Shown here: positions 15,027-42,521 of the stretch, one piece after another
How positions within the stretch are numbered: position 1 is the first letter of the stretch
Layout of the letters: each line of letters begins with the position of its first letter
Virus record (IMG/VR): IMGVR_UViG_2731957753_000001
Span: 12,324-76,323 of that record
Strand: one strand, 5' to 3'
Length of the DNA: 64,000 nt
DNA from: a virus
Lineage: Duplodnaviria; Caudoviricetes
Notes under the pieces: generated by a model
Told to the model about the DNA's origin: nothing
Databases searched by the model: none
What the model saw: the letters and a program-made list of their open reading frames with translations, nothing else
Position numbers and translations under genes: made by a program

Positions 15027-16748
15027 CTATTTGCCCTGCACAGCCAACTGCTGCACGAGCGATCCGAGGTCAGCGATCATCGCCAACGCACGCTGCCCGC
15101 GGTCTTTGTTCTTTTCCTTCTCGCCGATGACGGGCAGCCACTCAGGCGGAGACTCCCGATCCCAAGCAAGCGTGAGTTCACGGACGCGGTCGACATAGAT
15201 GGTGTGGTCATCGACGTACAGCACCGTCGGGCCGTTCCCGACGACTGTGGAGCCGATCACCTGGGCGCCGATACGGTCACCGATGAAGAAATGCCCGCGC
15301 CCCTGATCACCGACGAACCACGGCGCCCCATCCCGGATGTTGATTTCGTGGCTGAACCACGATCTCGTGTCGTGCAGGGCTTTCCGCATCGACAGCAGCA
15401 TTTCCAGCGTGTACGCCCGGTCGGAGCCGGACGCTAGCACTTCGAATGGGCTCGCCCACCCACCATTTGTTGCGCGGCCGGCGGATTCCAAGTTGGCCCA
15501 GGCGGCGATGGTGTCCCAGTAGAAGATTTGGGCGACGGCGTCCACCGCGCCACCAATGGGCGGTACCACGATTGCCGCTGCGAGCAAATCGCCCGCAGTC
15601 TGGATGGCAGCCGAGATAAGCTCATTCACGAATGGGAAACTGTGTCCACCGGCCACAATTTGTTTCGCGGTGCTCGGCGTGAACGTGAACTTGGACGATT
15701 CGATACCCGTCTCTTCGCCCTCAAGATAGATGACGTACGGGCACGTCTTGTCCGTCAACCGCAGGCCAGGAACGTTGTACGACGCCGGGGTTTCCGGCGA
15801 CACAACGTCTTCCTCGATCACATCAAGGAAGTCCTCAGCCCACTGCGCGAACGTGCGTTCCAGCCCAGTGAACGGGTTACCGCCGTTCGACGTGTCCGTG
15901 AAGTACCCGGACTTGTCGACGATGTCCACGACCAGCGCGCCGTTACGCAGGGTTTGGCCTTCGATCGGCTGCTCGTCATCATCGGCGATGTAGCGGCGGA
16001 CCTGGATAGACAGTTGCGCGTCTTCCAGGATGTCCTTCGCCATATCGACCCAGCGTTTAAACCGGGAGTTCGGGACAGACCAGATCGTGCCCGCAGCCAT
16101 GTCCTCAGCGAATGTCGTCGGTTTTACAACAACGGACCAGTTGCCCATTCCGGGCGCCGACGAATTCTGGTCCATCGGGTCATCCGGCAAACCCCACAAG
16201 CTAATTTGCTCACGCATAACGTTCAGAAAAAGGGCCGTTTTCAATGCCCAAATCGACGGACCCGCGATGAAGAATACGCGCGGGAATTGTACGAAGGCGG
16301 GCAAGAACGGCGAGGCCCATGCCAGGTAGTAGTCCAGGACGCCCAGATCGTGGAGAAAGCGGACCACCAATACCCAGGTGCCGTCTTCTCTTTTTTCAAG
16401 AACCTGATCGTGAAGTCTTCCAGACCACCGGGCGCCGTCTTTGTCTACAGTGATGTAGACGTGCAGTTTCTCGCCGCGCTGTATGCGTGGCGCTACCTGG
16501 TATATCCACTTTGCCAACGGGTCATCGAGCGGAATTTCCACCTGGCCGGGGCCGACCTCGTTATCGAGCCATGTGAAGCTGGCAGAGTATTCCGAGTTCA
16601 GGATCCCCTGTAAACGAAAATCGCCATCCCAGAGCCTCATCAAAGGCGGTTCGAGGCGTGCCCTGCGGTCTGCTTCCTCCGCCGCGTTAGTGGCTTCCCA
16701 GATTGCTTCGCATTGCTCCTGCAAACTGAGGGTTGAGAGGTCCGTCAT
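15027..16748 (-). CDS. Minor tail protein (baseplate hub, Gp37-like)
   Basis: 'RLWDGDF...ITVDKDGARWSGRL' family; second gene after the TMP. Confidence 0.85.
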   Translation of the reverse strand: MTDLSTLSLQEQCEAIWEATNAAEEADRRARLEPPLMRLWDGDFRLQGILNSEYSASFTWLDNEVGPGQVEIPLDDPLAKWIYQVAPRIQRGEKLHVYITVDKDGARWSGRLHDQVLEKREDGTWVLVVRFLHDLGVLDYYLAWASPFLPAFVQFPRVFFIAGPSIWALKTALFLNVMREQISLWGLPDDPMDQNSSAPGMGNWSVVVKPTTFAEDMAAGTIWSVPNSRFKRWVDMAKDILEDAQLSIQVRRYIADDDEQPIEGQTLRNGALVVDIVDKSGYFTDTSNGGNPFTGLERTFAQWAEDFLDVIEEDVVSPETPASYNVPGLRLTDKTCPYVIYLEGEETGIESSKFTFTPSTAKQIVAGGHSFPFVNELISAAIQTAGDLLAAAIVVPPIGGAVDAVAQIFYWDTIAAWANLESAGRATNGGWASPFEVLASGSDRAYTLEMLLSMRKALHDTRSWFSHEINIRDGAPWFVGDQGRGHFFIGDRIGAQVIGSTVVGNGPTVLYVDDHTIYVDRVRELTLAWDRESPPEWLPVIGEKEKNKDRGQRALAMIADLGSLVQQLAVQGK

Positions 16749-16778: not shown

Positions 16779-17705
16779 TCAACCATTCAGCCACGGATGA
16801 GACCATCGACGCTGGCAATAAACTTCAACCCGGCCACCACCCGCCGGCGCGGCCTCGACTTTCACGGGCAAGTTGGTTTCGGGGGTCTTCGGGGGCACGC
16901 GATGAAGGAACGCTATTCCATTCATCCGGCCAGCAAGGTTCGTGCCGAATAAGTCGCGTACCTGCAACTTGTCTCGGTACAGGGTGACCCGCGCCCCACC
17001 CTCAACATCACCGAGACCAGGCAGAGTGATCTTCCGGTTGGCGTGTTCTCCGCCTGGTATTCGCTGGTGTTTCTTCCCGACCCACGAATAGTCCGGGAGT
17101 GTCCAAACGCCGCGAGTAACGACCCATTGCAGCCACATTGGTTGGTCGCACGGGTTAGATATGGTCACCCAGCCTTCCGAGGTCCCAGCCGACGAGGTTT
17201 CGAAATAGTCGACCGGGGTGTTCTCGTAGGCGTCTTCGAAATAGAGTGGCTGGTCGGCGACGACCGCCATTTTTTCGAGCGATGACCGGGTTAGATGCGG
17301 CGCATGCTCGTATTCGGACGGCACCGTGTCACTCAGCGCCAACCACAGAGAACGTGTCCCTGCGGTCGGCGTGGTGATCGACAGTTTCGTGAGTGTCGAG
17401 TCCAAATCCCACGGGTCGTTTTCGTAATCCCACATGGAATGCCACTCGTTGTGGAGTGACTGCCATTCCTCGGGGGTTTCGCCCTTAAGGTGGACACCGA
17501 ACGTGATGTCACGTTGGTCGTATGATTTCCCTTGGTACGTCGAACCCTTCTGGAACGCCGATGAACGTCGGCGCGTGACTACGGGCGCCTCGAATAGGCC
17601 GCGTGGATCTGTTGCCAGATACAGCTTTTTCGAGGCTCCTGAGCCGCTGATGACCATGTGTTTGCCATCTTTGAAGATTTCGACGCGGGGACCTTCCCGC
17701 ATCAA
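16779..17705 (-). CDS. Distal tail protein (Dit-like)
   Basis: Directly follows the TMP; 'GSTYQG' and 'NPCDQPMWLQW' motifs. Confidence 0.8.
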   Translation of the reverse strand: MMREGPRVEIFKDGKHMVISGSGASKKLYLATDPRGLFEAPVVTRRRSSAFQKGSTYQGKSYDQRDITFGVHLKGETPEEWQSLHNEWHSMWDYENDPWDLDSTLTKLSITTPTAGTRSLWLALSDTVPSEYEHAPHLTRSSLEKMAVVADQPLYFEDAYENTPVDYFETSSAGTSEGWVTISNPCDQPMWLQWVVTRGVWTLPDYSWVGKKHQRIPGGEHANRKITLPGLGDVEGGARVTLYRDKLQVRDLFGTNLAGRMNGIAFLHRVPPKTPETNLPVKVEAAPAGGGRVEVYCQRRWSHPWLNG

Positions 17706-17720: not shown

Positions 17721-20700
17721 TTAACCGGTGTATGGGATTGCCCGCAGGTCCGCCATCTGGTTCAGTTTCCGGAACGCGTCAGCATCGTTCTTGACGGTCA
17801 GATTGACTGTCATCGAGTTATCGACGCTGCTGATCTGCGACCCGGACGGATTCGACTGGACCACTTGGTTCGCGGCCCCGACCGCATGCTGTCCAGCCTG
17901 GTAATACCCGGACTGGTTGAGCAACGCTTGCGAGTCGACGCCTGGTGCTTGGGCTTTCGCCTTGTTCCATTCGTCGAACGTTTTCGCGTACGCAGTGACT
18001 TCGGACGGGATCAAATCCCGCGGATCCGGCAGCCCCAACGGCCCCAAGGTGGAGTCGACAAGCGAGTTGAACCCGGTCGCGAACGCCCCAGACTCGCCGA
18101 AGAACCGATCCATGGTCTTCTTCTTCAGCGAACCGACCGTGTCCACACCCGCAACCGGCGGGCCACCCCAAATGTTGGTGTCCGGGGGTTCGGCGCCACC
18201 GTTGGGCGGCTGGTTCGGGTCGAACGGTGCCGGACCCCGCTGCTCCAGCGTTTTCGCCTGCGGCTTTGCGCCACCGTTGATGGCCTCCAACAGCGGACCC
18301 CACTGGCCGGCCGCGGCAGCATTCACGACGAATTCACCGTTGGACAGCAACGCCCGGATCTTGTCTGCGAGCGGACCACCAGGACCGTTCACCCAGCCAC
18401 CGTTGGCGTATCCGTGGCCGTGTCCCCACTCGGTGGTGAGGTCTGAGCCGTAGGTGTCCCGGTAGTAGTTGAGTGCGGCGACCATGTTCGCCATCGGGTC
18501 GGTGCGGTCGTTCGGCAGGCTGGGGTCACGGTAGGCGGCGAAGGTTCCGGGGATCACCTGAAGCAATCCCTGGGCTTCGTTACCACCACTGTTGACGTCC
18601 TGTACCTGCTGAAGAATCGACGGGTTACCGCCGGATTCGGACTTGATCTGCGCCATCATCGCGTTGACTTGGTTCTCGTCATCCGCGTTGAACCCCGTAC
18701 GCCGCATGGCCTCTTTCGCGAGGTCACGCCAGCGTTCAACATTCCCGGTGGCCTCGTAATCGACGAGACCACCACCGGACCCGCCCAGCTTGGACGAGAT
18801 GAACGAGGTGACAGCGTCGGCCATCTTCCGCGCGAACGCCTTCGGGATCTGCCCGAACTCACCCATACCGGGGAAGTCAGGGACACGATCCACCAAAGCG
18901 TTCAGCGGCTTGCGGACGAGGTTGTCGAGCGCGAAACCACGGCCGGCACCCATCGCGGACCCGAGAGCGTTCTTCACCCGGTCGAACAGGCCGGCCTTCT
19001 CCTCGTCGGAGAGCTGGGTGAGGAAGTCGTTCGCAGCCCAGTGGACGTGGTCCCTGTGCGCTTCGTTCGTCGCCGAACCAAAATCGAACGGCTTGCCTTC
19101 ATCGAGGTTCGACCACCCGTTGAGCGGCCAGTGAATCAACTCCGCGGACTGCGGATACGTGTCATAGATCCAGCGGGCAATCTCATCCATCGGCCCCGCA
19201 AGGTCGATAGCCTTGCCCTGCATGTGCAGGTCGTAGCCCGAGCCGACATCCACGAAGCGTTGCCCCGAAGTGAGGATCGCACCCGGAATCGCAGACGACA
19301 CCAGATCCCACAAATGCTGCTGAATCGGCTGCAACGGATCCGACGTGGCGACAATGCCGCCGTCCGCATAACCCGGCAGAGGGCCGTCAGCCTTCGACTG
19401 CTTCCCGCCCGTACCGAGCACGCCTTTACGCATGCGGTACATGGCGTCATGGCCGCCAGCCGCAGCAACCTCATCCGCAGTCCACACATGCTCGCCGGCC
19501 GACAACCGGTACAGTCCGGCTTTGTCTTCCTTCGGGCCACCAGGACCACGCACCGGACCACCAGGGCCACCCATCCAACGGGCACCGATCGGGGTTGCGG
19601 TCGGGTTCTCCTTGCCCATCTGCCCGACAGCCCCGACGTGCCCGAGCGGTTCCCATTTCGGGAGCCCGAGCTTGTCAGCGACCTTGTTCCAGATATCGCC
19701 GAACCCGTTCAGCACATCCACGACGGCATTGATCGGCCCATGGAACTGCGACGGCAGCTTCCCGAGAATCGAACCGAAATTCGAGACCGCGGCGTCGAAG
19801 AACGGGCCCAAGCTGTTGAACCCGTTTTTAAGCTTCTCAAGCGGGCCTTCAGTGCCGAGGATCCCATCGGTGATCTGACCGAGGTTCGTGCTGAACAGGC
19901 CCCAGAAACCCTCACCGTCAGTGAGGCTGGTGCCCATTTCGCCGATGAACGTGCTGATCTTCGTCTTGATGCTCGGCAGCGTCTCGTCGCCGAGGACACC
20001 GCCGAACTCGGTCGCCGAAGTCAGGACACTCTTGAACCCATTGGCGGCCTTGTTCTTGAAATCAACCCAAGTCTTGGCGCCCCATGTGCCGACCTTCGCG
20101 GACTGTTGCGGAAGCCATTCGTCGGTGAAACTAGTCCAAAGCTCCTTGGCCTCGTTGAACCCGAGCTTGCCGAGGAAGACGGGAGGGGACGGCGCCAGCA
20201 GCCCGCCACCGATGTCTTTAGCCCGGTCCCAACCAGTCTTCTGGGAGCCGTCTTCATTGGTGTCTTCGGTGAACCCTCCAACGACCTTCGCGAACGGGTT
20301 CCCTTCCATCGCCCCGTTGAGCCAGTCGGCCAGTTCGACAGCCTTCGTCAGCAGGGTCGTGATCGAGTTGACGGTGTCGCGGACGTCTTTGAAGAAGTCC
20401 TTGATCTTCTGCTGCCCCTCCTCCGAGGAGAGGAAGTCGTTCCAGCGGTCCAGGGTTTGCGTGATCGAGTCGAGCCAGCCCTCACCGGTCTCATCGCTGC
20501 CGCGGAAGATATTGCGGACCAGGTCGATAAGACGGGTGCCGATGCCCCAGATCTTCCCGAACGCGTCCAGCGACTCCCGCAAGAAGTCACGGAACTTCTG
20601 CTGCCCCTCCGGCGACTCGGCCCACTCCCGGAACTTCTGTGCGAAATCAGCGAACCCACCCGACAGGCCGGGCAGGAACTCGGATCCGACCTGAGACAGA

Positions 20701-22745
20701 GACAAGAAGCCCTGGAGGACATCGTTGATGCCGTCGATCAGCGGACCGACAGACTTAGTGGTGTTATCGAAGATCACGGACAGCTTGCCGCGGGTGGCCT
20801 CAGTGTTCAGATCGGCCAAGGCCCGCCGCAAACCCTCATTGATCTGCGTAGCGATCCCACCCAAACCGGTTTTCAGTGTCGGCAGGTAGGCGTAGGCGAG
20901 ATCTGACACCGACTGCCCGAGACGATCGAACAGAGCGTCTTGCAGTTCGTTTTTCAGGCCCTTGTATGCGTCTTTGACATCAAGGAGCTTCCGCACGAAA
21001 TCCTGAGCGTTCGGCGACAGCTTCGCCATCGCCTCGTCGAAAGCCTTAGCAGCAGTGCTGCCCTCATTCATGGCTTCAGTGACCGCGACCTGCGCTTCAG
21101 CAAGCGTGGCGTGGGCGTCCGCGAGACGTTCCTGAGCATCAATCTCGCCCTGCGCAGCGTCCGCTACAGCTTCCTTCGCAGCAACAACCTGGTCGCTGCC
21201 TTCGACACCCTTCGTGTTCGCGTCCGCTACCTTGTCGGCGAGCCGCTGGTTGTCAATGAGAAGGTCCGACTGGTCCGCCAACGCCTGGTTATACGAGTTG
21301 ACTGCACGAGCGCGGTCGATCGCGTCCGATTCCGGGTCGCTGAACGTCTGCAACATCTCCCGATGCGCTTCCGCTACAGCGATCGCGGCAGCCTGCTCTG
21401 TGAGCACGGTCCGACCCAATGCCCGGTTGAGGTCGTCGATCTCGTCTTTCGCGTCCTTACGGGCCCTGTTCAGGCCCTTCTGCGCACGCTCGGACGCCTT
21501 CTGCGCTGTGACAACACCACGCTCAGCCGACGCGACACCCTTAACCGCGGACGCGACCTGCTTCTGCGCAGCAGCGACAGCCTTACCGCGAGCCTCCATA
21601 TCGGAGCCTGCGGAATCGGATGCCTTCTTCGCTGCTTCGAACGCGTCATTAACCCCAGACAGGCCGATCTTCACCGCGGCGAATACGGACACGGCTCCGG
21701 CCAGGGCGGCCGGGAACAGCCCGAGCACGCCCGCGGCCTGTGCGAGCTGACCGATCAACGGCACCAGTGACACTGCGGCAAGAGCTATGAGTCCGACGAG
21801 GGCGACATTCACGATGTTGCTGAAGTTGAACATGTTCGCGGCGGCGGAACCGATGGCGCTGACGAGCCCGCGCATGCCTACGCCTGCGAGCCCAAAGAAC
21901 CCATTGCGGTCGTTGCGGGCGCCGTCGAGGCGCCGGCGGGCGTTGTGTTCGTCGTCCATCAGGGACAGCACGCGGCCCTGTGCGTCTGCCTGAGCGTTCC
22001 GGGCGCGGGTGAGTGCCTGTGTGGCGGCGAGACGCTGGGAGTCGGTCGCGGACGATCGCGCCATCACTTCGGCGTGCCGCTGCTCTGCGAGCGCCAACCG
22101 GTCCGTAGCAGTCGTCTGCTGGTTTCGGGCCTGCGAAAGGCGAGCCGCGACCGAAGCCACCTCAGCCTCAGCGCGCGCAACGGATGCCCGGTCGATCTCG
22201 ATCTGCATGCGGATCGCCCGCACGGGGCGCGTGAAAATACCGCCGGTCAGACGACGTTGGGTTGCGGGACTGAGCACAGAGCGCGCGTTCAACCCGTTGA
22301 CCTGATTCGTCACGGTAGACGCGAGGGACCGCAACGCCATCAACTGTGCGACGGCGGCCGTGGTGTCCACGTTGACATTCAGGGCGAGGGGCTGCGCTGC
22401 GACCTGCGTCCGGAACGCCTGCATCTGGGAGATCGCGCGTGTCAGGTCGAGGTCGACACCGAGGCGAGCGTTCGGCATGTTCGCGGTCGCTGCACGAACT
22501 TGGGAGCGGACGCGTGATGCGTCAACAGTGACGCCGACCCTCGCGTTCACTCCCTGCGAGGCGGCGCGGACCATGTTCCGGAGTTCGGTGCGGAATCGGG
22601 GGGCCAACTGGGGGCGGACCTGGACACGGATTGATTCGTTGATCGGCTGCAAGAGCGCGCGGACTTGAGACTTAAAACCGGTCGCTAGCTGCGGTTTTAA
22701 TGAAATTCGAGCGCTGCCGGCATGGAAGGCGGGCCAGTTAGCCAT
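17721..22745 (-). CDS. Tape measure protein with C-terminal peptidoglycan-hydrolase domains
   Basis: 1674 aa, Ala-rich coiled repeats, TM segments; SLT-like 'IKSESGGNP...GLLQVIPGTF'; Zn-peptidase-like 'HMQGKAID...HRDHVH'. Confidence 0.95.
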   Translation of the reverse strand: MANWPAFHAGSARISLKPQLATGFKSQVRALLQPINESIRVQVRPQLAPRFRTELRNMVRAASQGVNARVGVTVDASRVRSQVRAATANMPNARLGVDLDLTRAISQMQAFRTQVAAQPLALNVNVDTTAAVAQLMALRSLASTVTNQVNGLNARSVLSPATQRRLTGGIFTRPVRAIRMQIEIDRASVARAEAEVASVAARLSQARNQQTTATDRLALAEQRHAEVMARSSATDSQRLAATQALTRARNAQADAQGRVLSLMDDEHNARRRLDGARNDRNGFFGLAGVGMRGLVSAIGSAAANMFNFSNIVNVALVGLIALAAVSLVPLIGQLAQAAGVLGLFPAALAGAVSVFAAVKIGLSGVNDAFEAAKKASDSAGSDMEARGKAVAAAQKQVASAVKGVASAERGVVTAQKASERAQKGLNRARKDAKDEIDDLNRALGRTVLTEQAAAIAVAEAHREMLQTFSDPESDAIDRARAVNSYNQALADQSDLLIDNQRLADKVADANTKGVEGSDQVVAAKEAVADAAQGEIDAQERLADAHATLAEAQVAVTEAMNEGSTAAKAFDEAMAKLSPNAQDFVRKLLDVKDAYKGLKNELQDALFDRLGQSVSDLAYAYLPTLKTGLGGIATQINEGLRRALADLNTEATRGKLSVIFDNTTKSVGPLIDGINDVLQGFLSLSQVGSEFLPGLSGGFADFAQKFREWAESPEGQQKFRDFLRESLDAFGKIWGIGTRLIDLVRNIFRGSDETGEGWLDSITQTLDRWNDFLSSEEGQQKIKDFFKDVRDTVNSITTLLTKAVELADWLNGAMEGNPFAKVVGGFTEDTNEDGSQKTGWDRAKDIGGGLLAPSPPVFLGKLGFNEAKELWTSFTDEWLPQQSAKVGTWGAKTWVDFKNKAANGFKSVLTSATEFGGVLGDETLPSIKTKISTFIGEMGTSLTDGEGFWGLFSTNLGQITDGILGTEGPLEKLKNGFNSLGPFFDAAVSNFGSILGKLPSQFHGPINAVVDVLNGFGDIWNKVADKLGLPKWEPLGHVGAVGQMGKENPTATPIGARWMGGPGGPVRGPGGPKEDKAGLYRLSAGEHVWTADEVAAAGGHDAMYRMRKGVLGTGGKQSKADGPLPGYADGGIVATSDPLQPIQQHLWDLVSSAIPGAILTSGQRFVDVGSGYDLHMQGKAIDLAGPMDEIARWIYDTYPQSAELIHWPLNGWSNLDEGKPFDFGSATNEAHRDHVHWAANDFLTQLSDEEKAGLFDRVKNALGSAMGAGRGFALDNLVRKPLNALVDRVPDFPGMGEFGQIPKAFARKMADAVTSFISSKLGGSGGGLVDYEATGNVERWRDLAKEAMRRTGFNADDENQVNAMMAQIKSESGGNPSILQQVQDVNSGGNEAQGLLQVIPGTFAAYRDPSLPNDRTDPMANMVAALNYYRDTYGSDLTTEWGHGHGYANGGWVNGPGGPLADKIRALLSNGEFVVNAAAAGQWGPLLEAINGGAKPQAKTLEQRGPAPFDPNQPPNGGAEPPDTNIWGGPPVAGVDTVGSLKKKTMDRFFGESGAFATGFNSLVDSTLGPLGLPDPRDLIPSEVTAYAKTFDEWNKAKAQAPGVDSQALLNQSGYYQAGQHAVGAANQVVQSNPSGSQISSVDNSMTVNLTVKNDADAFRKLNQMADLRAIPYTG

Positions 22746-40109: not shown

Positions 40110-41050
40110 CAGGGCAGGCGAATTCCAAGGTCAGGCAGCGGCGGCAACACGAGCGCCGGCAACGGGGGCGGGATATAGGCGAGGGCTTCGGCCGGCAAGT
40201 ACTGCTCAACCTCGTCGGGCACGTACTCATGCAGCGGGGTCGGCTCGTACGGCGGCATGCCGTAGAAGTTCGGCAGTGGGCCTGGTTCCCATGTCGGGAT
40301 CGGCGCGGCCGGGTATTCGGTGGGCAGCCCGGTCGGGGTCGACTCGGGAAGCACCGGGATCGGTGTCGGCGCCTGCACCAGGGTTTCCTCACCCGCGGGG
40401 TATTCGTCGGCTTCACCGGGACGGTACGAATGCCAGCCCGACAGCGCACCAACAACACCCTGGACGAAACCAACAGGGTCACCGAGCGGGTTCGGCGAGT
40501 CGCAGGCTGCGTCGAATTCGTGGCAGACGCTCGTGGTGTTCGGGTGGTTCTCGCGCCGCCCCGGCGAACTCACACCCGGCAGGAACCCGGGCAGAGCATC
40601 ATAGATACCGCCAGCAGTCCGCGGATCCCCATACACGACAACCTCATCGGCCAGCGCGGCCTCATCCCCCGCGATCTCCGCACCCAGAGAATGCCCAATC
40701 ACCTTCACATGACCACCAGGGCACGCGGCGCGGTAGTCGGCGATAGTGTCCCGGAGGATAGCTTTCCCGTCGGCGACCGATTCATCCCTCGTGTACGGTC
40801 CGGTCGGCCAAACCGAGGACTTGTAGTCCACCGAGACCGTCTGACGCCCCAACGTGGCCTCACGATCCAACTGCCGGCTCATCAAATTCGGCAGCCCAGC
40901 CGTCTCGACCAACCTTTGCCCGTTCCCGCCGACACCGATCGTGACCGGACGACAGTCCGGGGCACCAACAGCGGGCGTGGCGAACGCAAGCGGCCCGAGC
41001 CATACGACACCAGCGGTCACGCATACAGCGGCCGTGAGACGACGAGACAT
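40109..41050 (-). CDS. Secreted PE-PPE/cutinase-type serine hydrolase with Pro-rich tail
   Basis: Signal peptide, GHSLG nucleophile elbow, 'YGDPR', 'CHEFDAACD'. Confidence 0.82.
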   Translation of the reverse strand: MSRRLTAAVCVTAGVVWLGPLAFATPAVGAPDCRPVTIGVGGNGQRLVETAGLPNLMSRQLDREATLGRQTVSVDYKSSVWPTGPYTRDESVADGKAILRDTIADYRAACPGGHVKVIGHSLGAEIAGDEAALADEVVVYGDPRTAGGIYDALPGFLPGVSSPGRRENHPNTTSVCHEFDAACDSPNPLGDPVGFVQGVVGALSGWHSYRPGEADEYPAGEETLVQAPTPIPVLPESTPTGLPTEYPAAPIPTWEPGPLPNFYGMPPYEPTPLHEYVPDEVEQYLPAEALAYIPPPLPALVLPPLPDLGIRLP

Positions 41051-41054
41051 GGCG

Positions 41055-41420
41055 CCTCCCGACGCTGCGAAGTTTGAGCCCGCCGGCTCCCAGGTAGCGA
41101 CAACCGGCCGGCGGGCAGCCGCGGCGCCAAAGGCAGCCAGCGGCGAACGCCAGCGAGATCACCTACAACCGCGGCGTGAGATCCTGCGGCGGCCCCGGAA
41201 ACGTGAATGGGGCACGAGAGCGCTGGCGAAATCTGTTAGAATGCAGGCGAAAGCCCCAGTGTGCGCCGCCTCTGCCATAGCATGCGGCATCGCCTCTACC
41301 CCTGCTAGGGGGCAAGCGCCTGGGGCTCTCGCCATTCTCGCGGTAGGTGTTCTCCTGGCAGCACCGCCACTACCTTCATTGCGATACCCCGCAGGGTCGC
41401 ACCACGCATGTATGCGCAGT
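41055..41420. other. Structured non-coding interval
   Basis: Stems 41078-87/41107-16, 41252-59/41320-27, 41246-50/41329-33; no credible ORF. Confidence 0.5.
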
Positions 41421-41426
41421 TAAGAT

Positions 41427-41519
41427 TCAGCCGATCAAGGCGAGAATGTCGATCAGTGCTTCGACAACGATCATGCCGATCTTGCCGAGCAACAGAACAG
41501 AATCAAGATCAATGCTCAT
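41427..41519 (-). CDS. 30-aa hydrophobic peptide MSIDLDSVLLLGKIGMIVVEALIDILALIG
   Basis: AGGAG RBS 7 nt upstream; absent from the ORF track because of its size. Confidence 0.65.
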   Translation of the reverse strand: MSIDLDSVLLLGKIGMIVVEALIDILALIG

Positions 41520-41533
41520 CCGGGGCTCCTAGA

Positions 41534-41710
41534 TCAGGCAGGGGTCTGCCAGGCATACCCGCCCGACGTCTTCGTGAGCACCTGACCTGTAGTACCGCCC
41601 GAGGGAACAAGCAGCAGTTCGTCACCGAGGACGTCTTTGATCGCAGCGACCAGTTCCTCAGCGGTGATGGTGCCGGACTCGCCGGCGACAGTGAATGTAT
41701 AGCCCGACAT
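41534..41710 (-). CDS. 58-aa protein with a tail-fibre-type motif
   Basis: GGAGG RBS; 'PSGGTTGQVLTKTSGGYAWQTP'. Confidence 0.7.
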   Translation of the reverse strand: MSGYTFTVAGESGTITAEELVAAIKDVLGDELLLVPSGGTTGQVLTKTSGGYAWQTPA

Positions 41711-41749: not shown

Positions 41750-42178
41750 TTAAGCCGCGGGACGCAACGTCACACGGATAGCGCCGTCATCGGCTGTTTC
41801 GCGCACGATTTCCTGGAACCGTCGCCCTTCGATCCACCAGTCAGCGCCCTCGATGGTCGGCGCGAACCCTGGGGTCGCATAGTCCTCCGGGGTCGGCCAA
41901 ACCAGCAGCGGCATCGACTTGTCCTCCAGCCACGACAACTCGACACCCCGGATACGGTTCTCTGTTACCACCGAGCGCCAGTTCTCCAGACGACCCGACC
42001 AGCGCTCACCCGACTCATCGTCATCGACAGTCAGGAACACAGGCTGGTCAGGGTCAGCGCTGCGGATAGCATGTGCGAGAGGATGCCCGAGATCCGGCAA
42101 CCGCGAATAGTCCTCACCGGGCTCGAACGTGTACAGCAGAGCGAAGTTCCGGTCCCACACGCGAGCGAACTTGGACAT
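41750..42178 (-). CDS. Stand-alone paralog of the tail-hub N-terminal domain
   Basis: RVWDRNFAL / HPLAHAI / VFLTVDDDESGERWSGRL align with RLWDGDFRL / DPLAKWI / VYITVDKDGARWSGRL of 15027..16748. Confidence 0.75.
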   Translation of the reverse strand: MSKFARVWDRNFALLYTFEPGEDYSRLPDLGHPLAHAIRSADPDQPVFLTVDDDESGERWSGRLENWRSVVTENRIRGVELSWLEDKSMPLLVWPTPEDYATPGFAPTIEGADWWIEGRRFQEIVRETADDGAIRVTLRPAA

Positions 42179-42372
42179 TATTCGAGTTCTCCTGGCAGAT
42201 AGTGTCGGCAGCCGCAATCCGGGCCACCCTTCGGGCAGGCACGCCACTCAACCTCGGGCGGATCAACGTACTCGGATTCCCAACGGGCAGTCTCACGCTT
42301 CTCACGCTGACGGGCAGTACCGCGCTCAGGTGGATGGCAGCAGCCCATCCAACAGTTCCGGTGCACCATCAT
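42178..42372 (-). CDS. Small Cys-rich protein
   Basis: 'CWMGCC...CPKGGPDCGCRH'; TAATG coupling to the next gene. Confidence 0.55.
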   Translation of the reverse strand: MMVHRNCWMGCCHPPERGTARQREKRETARWESEYVDPPEVEWRACPKGGPDCGCRHYLPGELE

Positions 42373-42396
42373 CGCCACGGGACGCCTCCGGAAAGT

Positions 42397-42439
42397 GAAA
42401 AGCCCGCCGAAGTGAGCACCGTTGGGAGGCTTGGCGGGC
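42397..42439 (-). terminator. Terminator-like hairpin after the tRNA
   Basis: GCCCGCC...GGCGGGC followed by TTTT on the minus strand. Confidence 0.65.
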
Positions 42440-42446
42440 ATCGTTG

Positions 42447-42521
42447 TGGCAGTGGTCGGATTTGAACCGACGTCCTCTTGGGTATGAACCAAGCGCGCTC
42501 ACCGAACTGCGCCACACTGCT
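42447..42521 (-). tRNA. tRNA with CAT anticodon (Met/fMet/Ile2)
   Basis: Full cloverleaf: D-stem GCGC/GCGC, anticodon arm CTTGG-TTCATAC-CCAAG, T-arm GTCGG-TTCAAAT-CCGAC; A1:C72 mismatch; CCA not encoded. Confidence 0.92.

What the first reader, a model, noticed from the sequence alone, without database searches (positions are those of the whole stretch)
41750..42178. Stand-alone copy of the tail-hub N-terminal domain: candidate tail-assembly interference factor
Seen: the 142-aa protein aligns by eye in four blocks with the N-terminal ~130 residues of the phage's own hub protein (RVWDRNFAL~RLWDGDFRL; HPLAHAI~DPLAKWI; VFLTVDDDESGERWSGRLEN~VYITVDKDGARWSGRLHD; WLED~FLHD) but lies 25 kb away in an accessory operon. 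Established: truncated tail-tip homologs can poison competitor tail assembly (Tai-type defences). Inference: a dominant-negative baseplate mimic against related phages, or an alternative hub subunit or chaperone.
Basis: partly seen in the sequence, partly recalled or inferred. Interest (0 to 1): 0.7.

Follow-up and report, generated by a model that had tools for sequence, protein, structure and literature searches.

The report
Stand-alone copy of tail-hub domain
A small gene in a Nocardia-type phage encodes a free-standing, diverged copy of the first domain of the phage's own tail-tip hub protein, in a fast-shuffling cassette of tiny genes, so it may be a structural mimic that meddles with tail assembly, but its function is untested.

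Summary
Residues 1-95 of the 142-aa protein (41750-42178, minus strand) are homologous to residues 38-136 of the phage's own baseplate hub (15027-16748). A family profile built without this protein hits only this protein and the hub among 71,336 genome ORFs (E 6e-10). hhalign gives 99% probability. The best solved-structure matches are the Bxb1 gp25 and Douge gp18 hubs.

- The protein has two modules. Residues 96-142 are a separate ~55-aa gene in related phages and weakly resemble a later hub segment.
- It belongs to a rare family of stand-alone small forms that separates cleanly from hub domains (branch support 100/97) and is under purifying selection (dN/dS 0.18 in one pair).
- It lies in a hypervariable cassette of tiny genes whose modules are fused, split and reordered between relatives.
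- Only 5 of 15 lineage members carry it, and a relative with about 80% identical hub domain lacks it, so it is dispensable for tail assembly.

A mimic that binds a tail-tip partner is the most likely mechanism. Whether it serves interference, counter-defence or self-regulation is open. Tai and Tab defences are not truncated tail homologs, so that premise was overstated.

The parts
41750..42178 (-). Gene for the 142-aa two-module protein (P0001), stop codon included
   Evidence: ORF list and translation. AGGAG ribosome-binding site and TAATG stop/start overlap with the upstream ORF. Coding-type GC3 of 0.73. AF2 model with mean pLDDT 84.6.
41894..42178 (-). N-module, residues 1-95: stand-alone homolog of hub domain I (tail-tube fold)
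   Evidence: Leave-one-out HMM against the genome. hhalign 99%, E 9.6e-18. PDB profile search: Bxb1 gp25 hub 8.5e-10, Douge gp18 hub 1.9e-4. Foldseek and VIA top hits 9d93_Oa (Z 8.9, rmsd 2.6, 86 aligned) and 8zdo_s (Z 8.1).
41753..41893 (-). C-module, residues 96-142: three-stranded beta unit that is a separate 51-71-aa gene in other phages
   Evidence: phmmer hits P0005, P0006, P0008, P0010, P0012, P0013 and P0016 to residues 96-142 only. Separate gene in the syntenic locus L002:7351-7566. Weak similarity to hub residues 322-342: hhalign score 30.3 against shuffle maxima of 21.6 and 25.6. AF2 of the module alone gives pLDDT 77.
15027..16748 (-). The phage's own baseplate hub (573 aa)
   Evidence: Pfam Sipho_Gp37 2e-95 and phrog_110 3.9e-170. 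Match to Bxb1 gp25 hub, PDB 9D93, at 2.3e-100.
16341..16637 (-). Hub residues 38-136, the domain I segment matched by the N-module
   Evidence: HMM and hhalign alignments. It corresponds to the first half of the 'core beta-fold' (residues 42-147) of the Douge hub (PMC13033339).
15723..15785 (-). Hub residues 322-342, weakly matched by the start of the C-module
   Evidence: hhalign score 30.3-30.6, with 0 of 200 shuffles reaching it in either of two null models. BLASTP second alignment segment at the same place, E 0.27. Suggestive only.
42178..42378 (-). Upstream 66-aa Cys-rich ORF (cys66), its stop overlapping the start of P0001 (TAATG)
   Evidence: Sequence. Homologs found in 9 of 14 lineage relatives, and directly abutting the N-module gene in L035 and L082.
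41534..41710 (-). Downstream 58-aa ORF (p58) resembling an internal piece of a large minor tail protein
   Evidence: phrog_36751 minor tail protein 3e-7. 54% identity over 48 aa to about residues 195-239 of Gordonia phage Utz gp30.
41427..41519 (-). 30-aa hydrophobic peptide ORF (p30) with an AGGAG ribosome-binding site, the last gene of the mini-operon
   Evidence: Sequence. A 34-aa ORF occupies the same position in L034.
42447..42521 (-). tRNA-Met directly upstream of the mini-operon
   Evidence: ARAGORN and Rfam tRNA at 66 bits.
16779..17705 (-). Distal tail protein (Dit), the likely partner of hub domain I
   Evidence: phrog_106 minor tail protein 2.1e-62 and a weak Sipho_tail hit. Lies between the 1674-aa ORF taken to be the tape measure gene (by size and position only) and the hub gene.

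Best explanation
Shown: the gene encodes a small two-module protein. Residues 1-95 are a diverged, free-standing copy of domain I of the Sipho_Gp37-type baseplate hub. Domain I has the tail-tube fold, and in solved mycobacteriophage baseplates it forms part of the sheet that receives the beta-hairpins of the Dit ring (the tape-measure C-termini insert into the Dit-hub lumen). Residues 96-142 are a separate module that related phages encode as its own tiny gene.

The gene sits in a mini-operon of tiny genes (Cys-rich 66 aa, this protein, a 58-aa tail-fibre-like piece, a 30-aa hydrophobic peptide). This mini-operon is a hypervariable cassette in a lineage of Nocardia-type phages. The cassette's modules N, C and D are found fused, split or reordered in different relatives.

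The N-module is under purifying selection, but only a minority of the lineage carries it, so the phage does not need it to build its tail.

Inferred: it acts as a structural mimic of hub domain I. It would bind a natural partner of that domain (the lower face of the Dit ring, the tape-measure C-terminus, or neighbouring hub protomers) and so compete with a hub during tail-tip assembly. The most likely use is interference with co-infecting or resident related phages. The fused or adjacent C and D modules would be interaction partners that tune or restrain it.
For: Homology and fold.

Role of domain I at the Dit interface: PMC13252515 and PMC13033339.

A real gene under selection: ribosome-binding site and translational coupling; GC3; dN/dS 0.18 for the P0014/P0021 pair; confident AF2 fold.

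A separate family, not a recent duplicate: the small forms are separated from the hub domains by a single branch (support 100/97) and share a 13-residue deletion.

Accessory and fast-changing:
- The N-module is present in 5 of 15 lineage members. The module combinations seen are N-C, N-D, D-N, D|N, C|D, cys66|C and D alone.
- A relative (G174) with about 80% identical hub domain has no N-module.
- N-module identity between relatives is 34-45%, against 70-82% for the large terminase.
- No stand-alone copy was found in 50,697 phage records.

A second tail-derived miniprotein lies next door.

Precedents: small phage proteins block tail assembly (Tai, Tab), and a structural-protein homolog redirects assembly (SaPIbov5 Ccm, PMC8569155).
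Against: There is no functional, interaction or expression data. No multimer co-fold could be run.

The gene is on the same strand as the packaging and late genes, and I found no promoter of its own. If it is made together with the phage's own tail proteins, it must spare them, and nothing shows how.

The host genome holds no second hub of this type as an obvious resident target.

The neighbours (abiF-motif RNA, tRNA, MazG-like gene) suggest a counter-defence island rather than a defence island.

Tai and Tab are not homologs of their targets, so there is no direct precedent for a hub-derived blocker.
Confidence: 0.4

Rival explanations
1. Counter-defence decoy. The free hub-like domain is made during infection to occupy a host immune sensor that recognises the hub or other tail-tube-fold proteins, so that abortive infection is not triggered.
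For: The immediate neighbourhood looks like a counter-defence island. It holds an abiF-motif RNA at 42402-42438 (Rfam 37.7 bits, gathering score 37), a phage tRNA-Met, a MazG-like pyrophosphohydrolase and a T5orf172/GIY-YIG-like gene. Patchy distribution and rapid shuffling fit an arms-race gene.
Against: No sensor of hub proteins is known in these hosts. There are no PADLOC or Pfam matches. The three motifs most conserved in hubs are also conserved in the small family, which is as expected for keeping the fold or an assembly interface and is not specific to a decoy role.
Confidence: 0.2
2. Accessory part or assembly helper of the phage's own tail tip. It would be an extra tube-fold subunit, adaptor or chaperone that docks on Dit or hub and brings the fused C or D module to the baseplate.
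For: It is co-oriented with the late genes and translationally coupled within a mini-operon. Tail-tube-fold domains typically stack in tails. Mycobacteriophage baseplates carry diverse accessory proteins (PMC13252515). A second tail-like miniprotein is adjacent.
Against: It lies 25 kb outside the tail module. It is absent from 10 of 15 lineage members, including one with about 80% identical hub domain. It was not found as a stand-alone gene in the 50,697 phage records searched, where about 2,500 records carry this hub family. N-modules are degenerate in some relatives (L072, L075).
Confidence: 0.15
3. Functionless relic. It would be a fragment of a hub gene captured by illegitimate recombination that has stayed open by chance.
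For: Degenerate copies exist: the L072 N-module scores only 17 bits, and the L075 copy has lost the RWSG motif. The family is rare.
Against: The ORF is intact, with a ribosome-binding site and translational coupling. dN/dS is 0.18 in the one measurable pair. The motifs are kept across about 13 sequences that are only 30-47% identical to P0001. The position is conserved in four syntenic phages. The predicted fold is confident.
Confidence: 0.08
4. Chance or motif-level resemblance only, for example a WD40-like 'RvWD' strand, with no true homology to the hub.
For: The pairwise BLASTP match is short. The profile search among longer proteins returned WD40-repeat proteins.
Against: The WD40 hits are sums of 9-19 repeats, each matching only profile positions about 5-30 at 13 bits or less. 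The hub gives one 37.8-bit match over positions 9-86. Genome-wide, PDB-wide and fold searches all single out hubs.
Confidence: 0.02

Closest known systems
Domain I (N-terminal half of the 'core beta-fold') of actinophage baseplate hubs: Bxb1 gp25 (PDB 9D93), Douge gp18 (PDB 8ZDO), Pfam Sipho_Gp37
   Same: The sequence is homologous (E 8.5e-10 and 1.9e-4) and the fold is the same (Z 8.9 and 8.1). The three hub motifs are kept: RxWD, LPxxHPxA and TVDxxGxRWSG.
   Different: The matching part is about 95 residues instead of about 575. It lacks the N-helix, the peripheral and fibre-binding domains and the C-helix. It has a shared 13-residue deletion. It is encoded outside the tail module. It is fused to unrelated tiny modules. 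It scores below Pfam's threshold.
Tab / anti-Tab of Pseudomonas phage JBD26 (PMC10884400)
   Same: Tab is a small phage-encoded accessory protein near the terminase genes. It blocks tail assembly, its effect maps to the tape-measure C-terminus, and it is paired with a partner gene.
   Different: Tab is not described as a homolog of a tail protein. [quoted passage not shown] No sequence relation was tested or found here, and no function has been shown for the present protein.
Tai / Ati tail assembly inhibition systems (PMC11364771)
   Same: These are accessory genes of prophages and satellites that yield tail-less particles. Escape mutations map to tail-tip proteins, and a counter-defence partner is present.
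   Different: They are found in Gram-negative hosts and act on the C-terminus of J or on the tail needle. They are not described as truncated tail homologs. No similarity to them was detected here.
SaPIbov5 Ccm (PMC8569155)
   Same: Ccm is a homolog of a phage structural protein, encoded by a competing element, that acts by joining the target's assembly pathway.
   Different: Ccm is a full capsid-protein homolog that redirects capsid shape. The present protein is a single-domain copy of a tail protein, encoded by the phage itself.
Tail-tube-fold superfamily (Hcp, T4 gp27 domain I, Dit N-domain, tail tube proteins)
   Same: The fold matches at Z 5-7 to many members.
   Different: Sequence relation is detectable only to Sipho_Gp37 hubs. 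No ring formation or stacking has been shown.

Membership tests
Pfam PF14594 Sipho_Gp37 (baseplate hub) | Whole-protein score at or above the gathering threshold (26.2 bits) | tested here: not met
   15.5 bits, E 0.009, covering profile positions 41-104 of 370 only.
Pfam PF14594 Sipho_Gp37 (baseplate hub) | Homology of the N-terminal domain I segment | tested here: met
   hhalign 99%, E 9.6e-18. Leave-one-out HMM 6.4e-10 against the genome. PDB hubs at 8.5e-10 and 1.9e-4.
Pfam PF14594 Sipho_Gp37 (baseplate hub) | Full hub architecture: N-helix, core beta-fold in two halves, peripheral domain, fibre-binding domain, C-helix | tested here: not met
   The protein has 142 aa. Only hub residues 38-136 are matched, plus a weak 21-residue match to hub residues 322-342. 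Domain scheme taken from PMC13033339.
Pfam PF14594 Sipho_Gp37 (baseplate hub) | Position in the tail module, after the tape measure and Dit genes | tested here: not met
   It lies 25 kb from the tail module, in a cassette upstream of the terminase genes.
Tail-tube-fold superfamily | Beta-sandwich/barrel fold shared by Hcp, gp27 domain I, Dit and tube proteins | tested here: met
   VIA Z 8.9 and 8.1 to the hubs, and Z 5-7 to Dit proteins of phages Chi and JBD30, Hcp1, T5 pb3, T4 gp27 and tube proteins. The model's alignment included hub segments, so this fold match is not fully independent of the sequence evidence.
Tab (tail assembly blocker) | [quoted passage not shown] | tested here: not met
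   The gene is about 2.7 kb upstream of the small-terminase-like gene and on the same strand. No promoter was found by the consensus scan. Features taken from PMC10884400.
Tab / Tai | Blocks tail assembly of target phages (tail-less particles) | not testable with these tools
   Needs expression, plating and electron microscopy.
Tai (tail assembly inhibition) | Sequence relation to described Tai proteins | tested here: inconclusive
   No PADLOC-DB 2.0 hit, but that library dates from 2023, before the Tai paper. No Tai sequences were available here for comparison.
WD40 repeat proteins | Tandem repeats of about 40 residues forming a propeller | tested here: not met
   P0001 has a single domain. 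The WD40 hits match only profile positions about 5-30 at 13 bits or less per repeat.

The most novel reading that the evidence does not exclude
Actinophages carry a modular, rapidly shuffling cassette of miniproteins cut out of tail-tip proteins: hub domain I, a later hub segment, and a fibre segment. These would work as homology-guided poisons of competitors' tail-tip assembly, with fused or adjacent partner modules acting as built-in restraint or self-protection. That would be a Tab/Tai-like strategy in which the blocker is derived from its own target.
Probability: 0.2. Interest if true: 0.8.

Novelty: new variant of a known kind. Interest (0 to 1): 0.55.

Why it matters
Assembly-blocking defences (Tab, Tai) are recent discoveries, and how they recognise their targets is unknown. 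A blocker that is itself a copy of the target's docking domain would give a simple, testable recognition rule. It would also give a way to find such genes by sequence: look for small stand-alone paralogs of tail-tip domains outside the tail module.

Even without that function, the locus defines a previously unnamed family of stand-alone hub-domain proteins. It also defines a gene-fusion network of tiny modules (N, C, D, Cys-rich) that predicts physical partners. The solved Bxb1 and Douge baseplates provide a structural frame for designing binding tests.

Tried and rejected
**Searches that found nothing**
- Megablast and tblastn of the locus and of P0001 against 50,697 phage records gave no match.
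- The word-indexed search of 5.8 billion proteins found only P0001 itself.

**WD40 hits**
- The profile search among longer proteins returned WD40 proteins. These are an artefact of many weak repeats of one motif.

**C-module against the hub**
- I guessed that the C-module matches the hub's C-terminal half of the core fold ('GAPWFVGD...'). HMM search does not support this.
- The best profile match is instead to hub residues 322-342, and it is weak.
- The C-module folded alone gave no significant Foldseek match.
- The VIA wide search gave only Z<4, although many of the top rows are hub, Tal or J-type tail-tip proteins. I treat this as suggestive only.

**Other cassette modules**
- The D-module shows no similarity to the hub.
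- No cassette module has a significant Pfam hit or any PADLOC hit.
- The protein atlas gave nothing usable.

**Expression signals**
- The promoter/terminator consensus scan found nothing above chance near the gene.
- The hairpin after the tRNA is not more stable than shuffled sequence (z -0.3). It is better explained as an abiF-motif RNA.

**Other checks**
- I looked for an integrase on the contig and found none.

Full report
**Setting**

The window is most of a 76.3-kb contig (C25) of a 7.44-Mb actinobacterial assembly. The whole contig has an even 62% G+C against 67% for the genome. It carries phage genes from end to end and has no tyrosine or serine integrase. It is therefore a phage genome, unplaced or extrachromosomal, rather than a clearly integrated prophage. 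One family member is annotated as Nocardia wallacei.

Nearly all genes run on the minus strand. The tail module includes a 1674-aa ORF taken to be the tape measure gene from its size and position (17721-22745), Dit (16779-17705) and the hub (15027-16748). The hub scores Pfam Sipho_Gp37 2e-95 and phrog_110 3.9e-170. It matches the Bxb1 gp25 hub of PDB 9D93 at 2.3e-100.

**The observation**

The 142-aa ORF starts at ATG 42178. It has an AGGAG ribosome-binding site about 10 nt upstream. Its codon-position G+C is 0.66/0.48/0.73, like the hub gene.

BLASTP against the hub finds only the 20-residue block around TVD..G.RWSGRL (E 5e-4). The by-eye alignment alone would therefore be marginal. Profiles settle it:
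- phrog_110 matches residues 31-97 at 1e-6.
- An exhaustive phmmer scan of 1.8 billion representatives found six short proteins (85-178 aa) that match residues 1-95.
- Five of the seven family members hit phrog_110 on their own.
- A profile of the six homologs from other genomes, run with all filters off against the 71,336 six-frame ORFs of this genome, finds only this protein (5e-20) and the hub at residues 38-134 (6.4e-10). The next hit has E 1.4.
- hhalign of the family against 22 hubs gives 99% probability and E 9.6e-18 over hub residues 38-136.
- The same profile, searched against all PDB sequences, returns only the Bxb1 gp25 hub (8.5e-10, residues 37-146) and the Douge gp18 hub (1.9e-4) as significant hits.

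**Fold**

An AF2 model built on a 35-row alignment has mean pLDDT 84.6, with residues 1-70 mostly above 90.
- Foldseek ranks the Bxb1 and Douge hubs first.
- VIA gives Z 8.9 (rmsd 2.6, 86 aligned residues) and Z 8.1 to the two hubs.
- These are followed at Z 5-7 by Dit proteins, Hcp1, T5 pb3, T4 gp27 and tail tube proteins.

This is the tail-tube fold. The alignment used for the model contained hub segments, so the fold match is supportive but not independent of the sequence evidence.

In Douge the matched stretch is the first half of the hub's 'core beta-fold' (residues 42-147; PMC13033339). [quoted passage not shown] In Douge the tape-measure C-termini insert into the Dit-hub lumen.

**A two-module protein**

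The phmmer hits split cleanly. Residues 96-142 match a different set of tiny proteins (51-68 aa) with the consensus Y-x-T-P-G-x-x-P-T-x-P-G-A-D-W-F-I-E-G-R-R-[FY]-R-E-V. In the syntenic phage of locus L002 this C-module is a separate 71-aa gene located upstream of the N-module gene.

The C-module profile does not reach the hub in an HMM search. hhalign, however, aligns its first 21 columns to hub residues 322-342 (TPASYNVPGLRLTDKTCPYVI) with a score of 30.3. The score is 30.6 without the window's own sequence. None of 200 column shuffles of the hub alignment reached this (maximum 21.6), and none of 200 shuffles of the query did (maximum 25.6).

Folded alone, the C-module is a three-stranded sheet (pLDDT 77). 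It has no significant Foldseek match. In the wide VIA search all Z values are below 4, yet at least a dozen of the top 50 rows are hub, Tal or J-type tail-tip proteins.

I read this as a hint, not a demonstration, that the second module is also hub-derived. If so, P0001 would be a collinear 'mini-hub'.

**The family and its history**

In a tree of N-modules and hub domain I segments, a single branch separates the nine small forms from the 19 hub domains (support 100/97). P0001 pairs with its positional ortholog P0004.

The small forms share a 13-residue deletion after the first strand and a shorter loop before the TVD motif. They are therefore an old, separate family, not a recent copy of this phage's hub. 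P0001 is 35% identical to its own hub segment and 23-35% identical to other hubs.

For the one pair close enough to measure (P0014 and P0021, 72% identical), Nei-Gojobori dN/dS is 0.18, with dS about 1.1. This indicates purifying selection.

The family is rare:
- About ten representatives turned up among 1.8 billion.
- Only one further stand-alone copy (L007) was found in 200 genomes of the same bacterial family. All other hits there lie in hub-sized open frames, apart from one 444-aa frame that I did not examine (L018) and a spurious 292-aa hit (L030).
- None was found in 50,697 phage records. There, family member P0009 matches 476 records, and the listed hits all fall in annotated minor tail (hub) genes.

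**Context: a shuffling cassette**

The gene is second in a tight mini-operon:
- A 66-aa Cys-rich ORF whose TAA stop overlaps the ATG of P0001.
- P0001 itself.
- A 58-aa ORF that is 54% identical over 48 residues to an internal piece (about residues 195-239) of the 1,057-aa minor tail protein gp30 of Gordonia phage Utz.
- A 30-aa hydrophobic peptide.

Upstream lie a tRNA-Met, an abiF-motif RNA, a T5orf172/GIY-YIG-like gene and a MazG-like gene. Downstream, after about 370 non-coding bases, lie a secreted cutinase-like esterase, an NrdH-like glutaredoxin and the terminase genes. The same order holds in three other phages found through the N-module (L002, L034, L035).

To remove ascertainment bias, I searched 266 genomes of the same genus with the large terminase. 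Fifteen had relatives at 67% identity or more. I fetched 10 kb upstream of the terminase gene for 14 of them. Profile scans gave these results:
- The N-module occurs in four: L069 as an N-D fusion, L075 as a D-N fusion with the RWSG motif lost, L076 as a D gene followed by an N gene, and L072 as a D-N fusion with a degenerate N-module.
- The C-module occurs in three.
- A third module, D ('CDIEIVE...'), occurs in six.
- The Cys-rich ORF occurs in nine.

Counting the window itself, five of 15 lineage members have an N-module. The G174 phage has a hub domain I about 80% identical to this one but has none of N, C or D. The module is therefore dispensable for building this type of tail.

Between syntenic relatives, the N-module is 34-45% identical. 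The large terminase is 70-82% identical and the small terminase 57-68%.

The repeated fusion and adjacency of N with D, N with C, C with D, and cys66 with N or C predicts that these small modules work together.

**Mechanism**

What is shown: this is a selected, accessory, free-standing copy of the hub domain that faces Dit. It sits in an arms-race-like locus.

What is inferred: it binds a partner of that domain and competes with a hub. This could poison tail-tip assembly of related phages. Tab and Tai show that small phage proteins do block tail assembly (PMC10884400, PMC11364771). SaPIbov5 Ccm shows that a structural-protein homolog can act by entering the target's assembly pathway (PMC8569155). 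However, neither the Tab nor the Tai paper describes its protein as a truncated tail homolog.

Several points argue against a defence role:
- The gene is co-oriented with the late genes, and I found no promoter of its own.
- The host genome has no second hub of this type.
- The neighbours look like counter-defence genes.

A decoy for a host sensor of tail proteins is therefore a serious rival. An accessory role in the phage's own baseplate is less likely, given the patchy distribution. A functionless relic is unlikely, given the selection signal, the translational coupling and the conserved motifs.

**Verdict**

This is a new variant of a known kind: a hub domain of the tail-tube fold exapted as a modular miniprotein. 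It is of moderate interest until binding or plating data exist.

Noticed in passing
window 42402-42438 (-): There is an Rfam abiF RNA motif (RF03085) match at 37.7 bits, just above the gathering score of 37. It lies directly after tRNA-Met and before the Cys-rich ORF. As a plain hairpin the sequence is not more stable than shuffles (z -0.3).
   Followed up: partly
window 42178-42378 (-): An unannotated 66-aa Cys-rich ORF (CxxxCC...ACPKGGPDCGC) has a GGAGG ribosome-binding site, and its stop overlaps the next gene's start. It is the most widespread member of the cassette, with homologs in 9 of 14 lineage relatives. It abuts the N-module gene in L035 and L082. It looks like a small zinc-binding protein, and no family match was found.
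   Followed up: partly
window 41534-41710 (-): A 58-aa ORF is homologous to an internal segment (about residues 195-239) of the 1,057-aa minor tail protein gp30 of Gordonia phage Utz. This makes it a second tail-derived miniprotein next to the first. It was not found in the 14 lineage relatives or elsewhere in this genome.
   Followed up: partly
L002:8001-8537, L004:185-463, L071:7121-7420 and others: A third tiny module (D, 'IPDC.DIEI[IV]E...RINGKPVL...VTLTVFAR') occurs alone, fused before the hub-like module, or fused after it. It is present in 6 of 14 lineage relatives but not in this window. It has no known family (phrog_9911, of unknown function, at E 0.001).
   Followed up: partly
contig C25 (window plus 12.3 kb upstream): The whole 76.3-kb contig has an even 62% G+C against 67% for the genome and has no tyrosine or serine integrase. 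Related phages sit on contigs of 85-95 kb in several genomes but lie inside large contigs in two others. The element may be extrachromosomal in some hosts.
   Followed up: partly
profile search: The family profile pulls out long WD40-repeat proteins with apparently strong E-values. This comes only from 9-19 weak matches per protein to the 'aRvWD.d.nLvhtF' strand pair. It is a caution for profile searches with short beta-rich domains.
   Followed up: yes
window 41050-41426: About 370 bases with no credible ORF lie between the 30-aa peptide gene and the cutinase-like gene. Gaps of comparable size (about 340-630 bases) occupy the same position in L002, L034 and L035. This could be a regulatory RNA or the packaging site.
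   Followed up: no
L002:7733-7954: In the syntenic phage, the ORF just upstream of the hub-like gene (73 aa) matches phrog_6439. It also matches a segment found inside head maturation protease and virion structural proteins (E 1e-10). This is another small gene resembling a piece of a virion protein.
   Followed up: no
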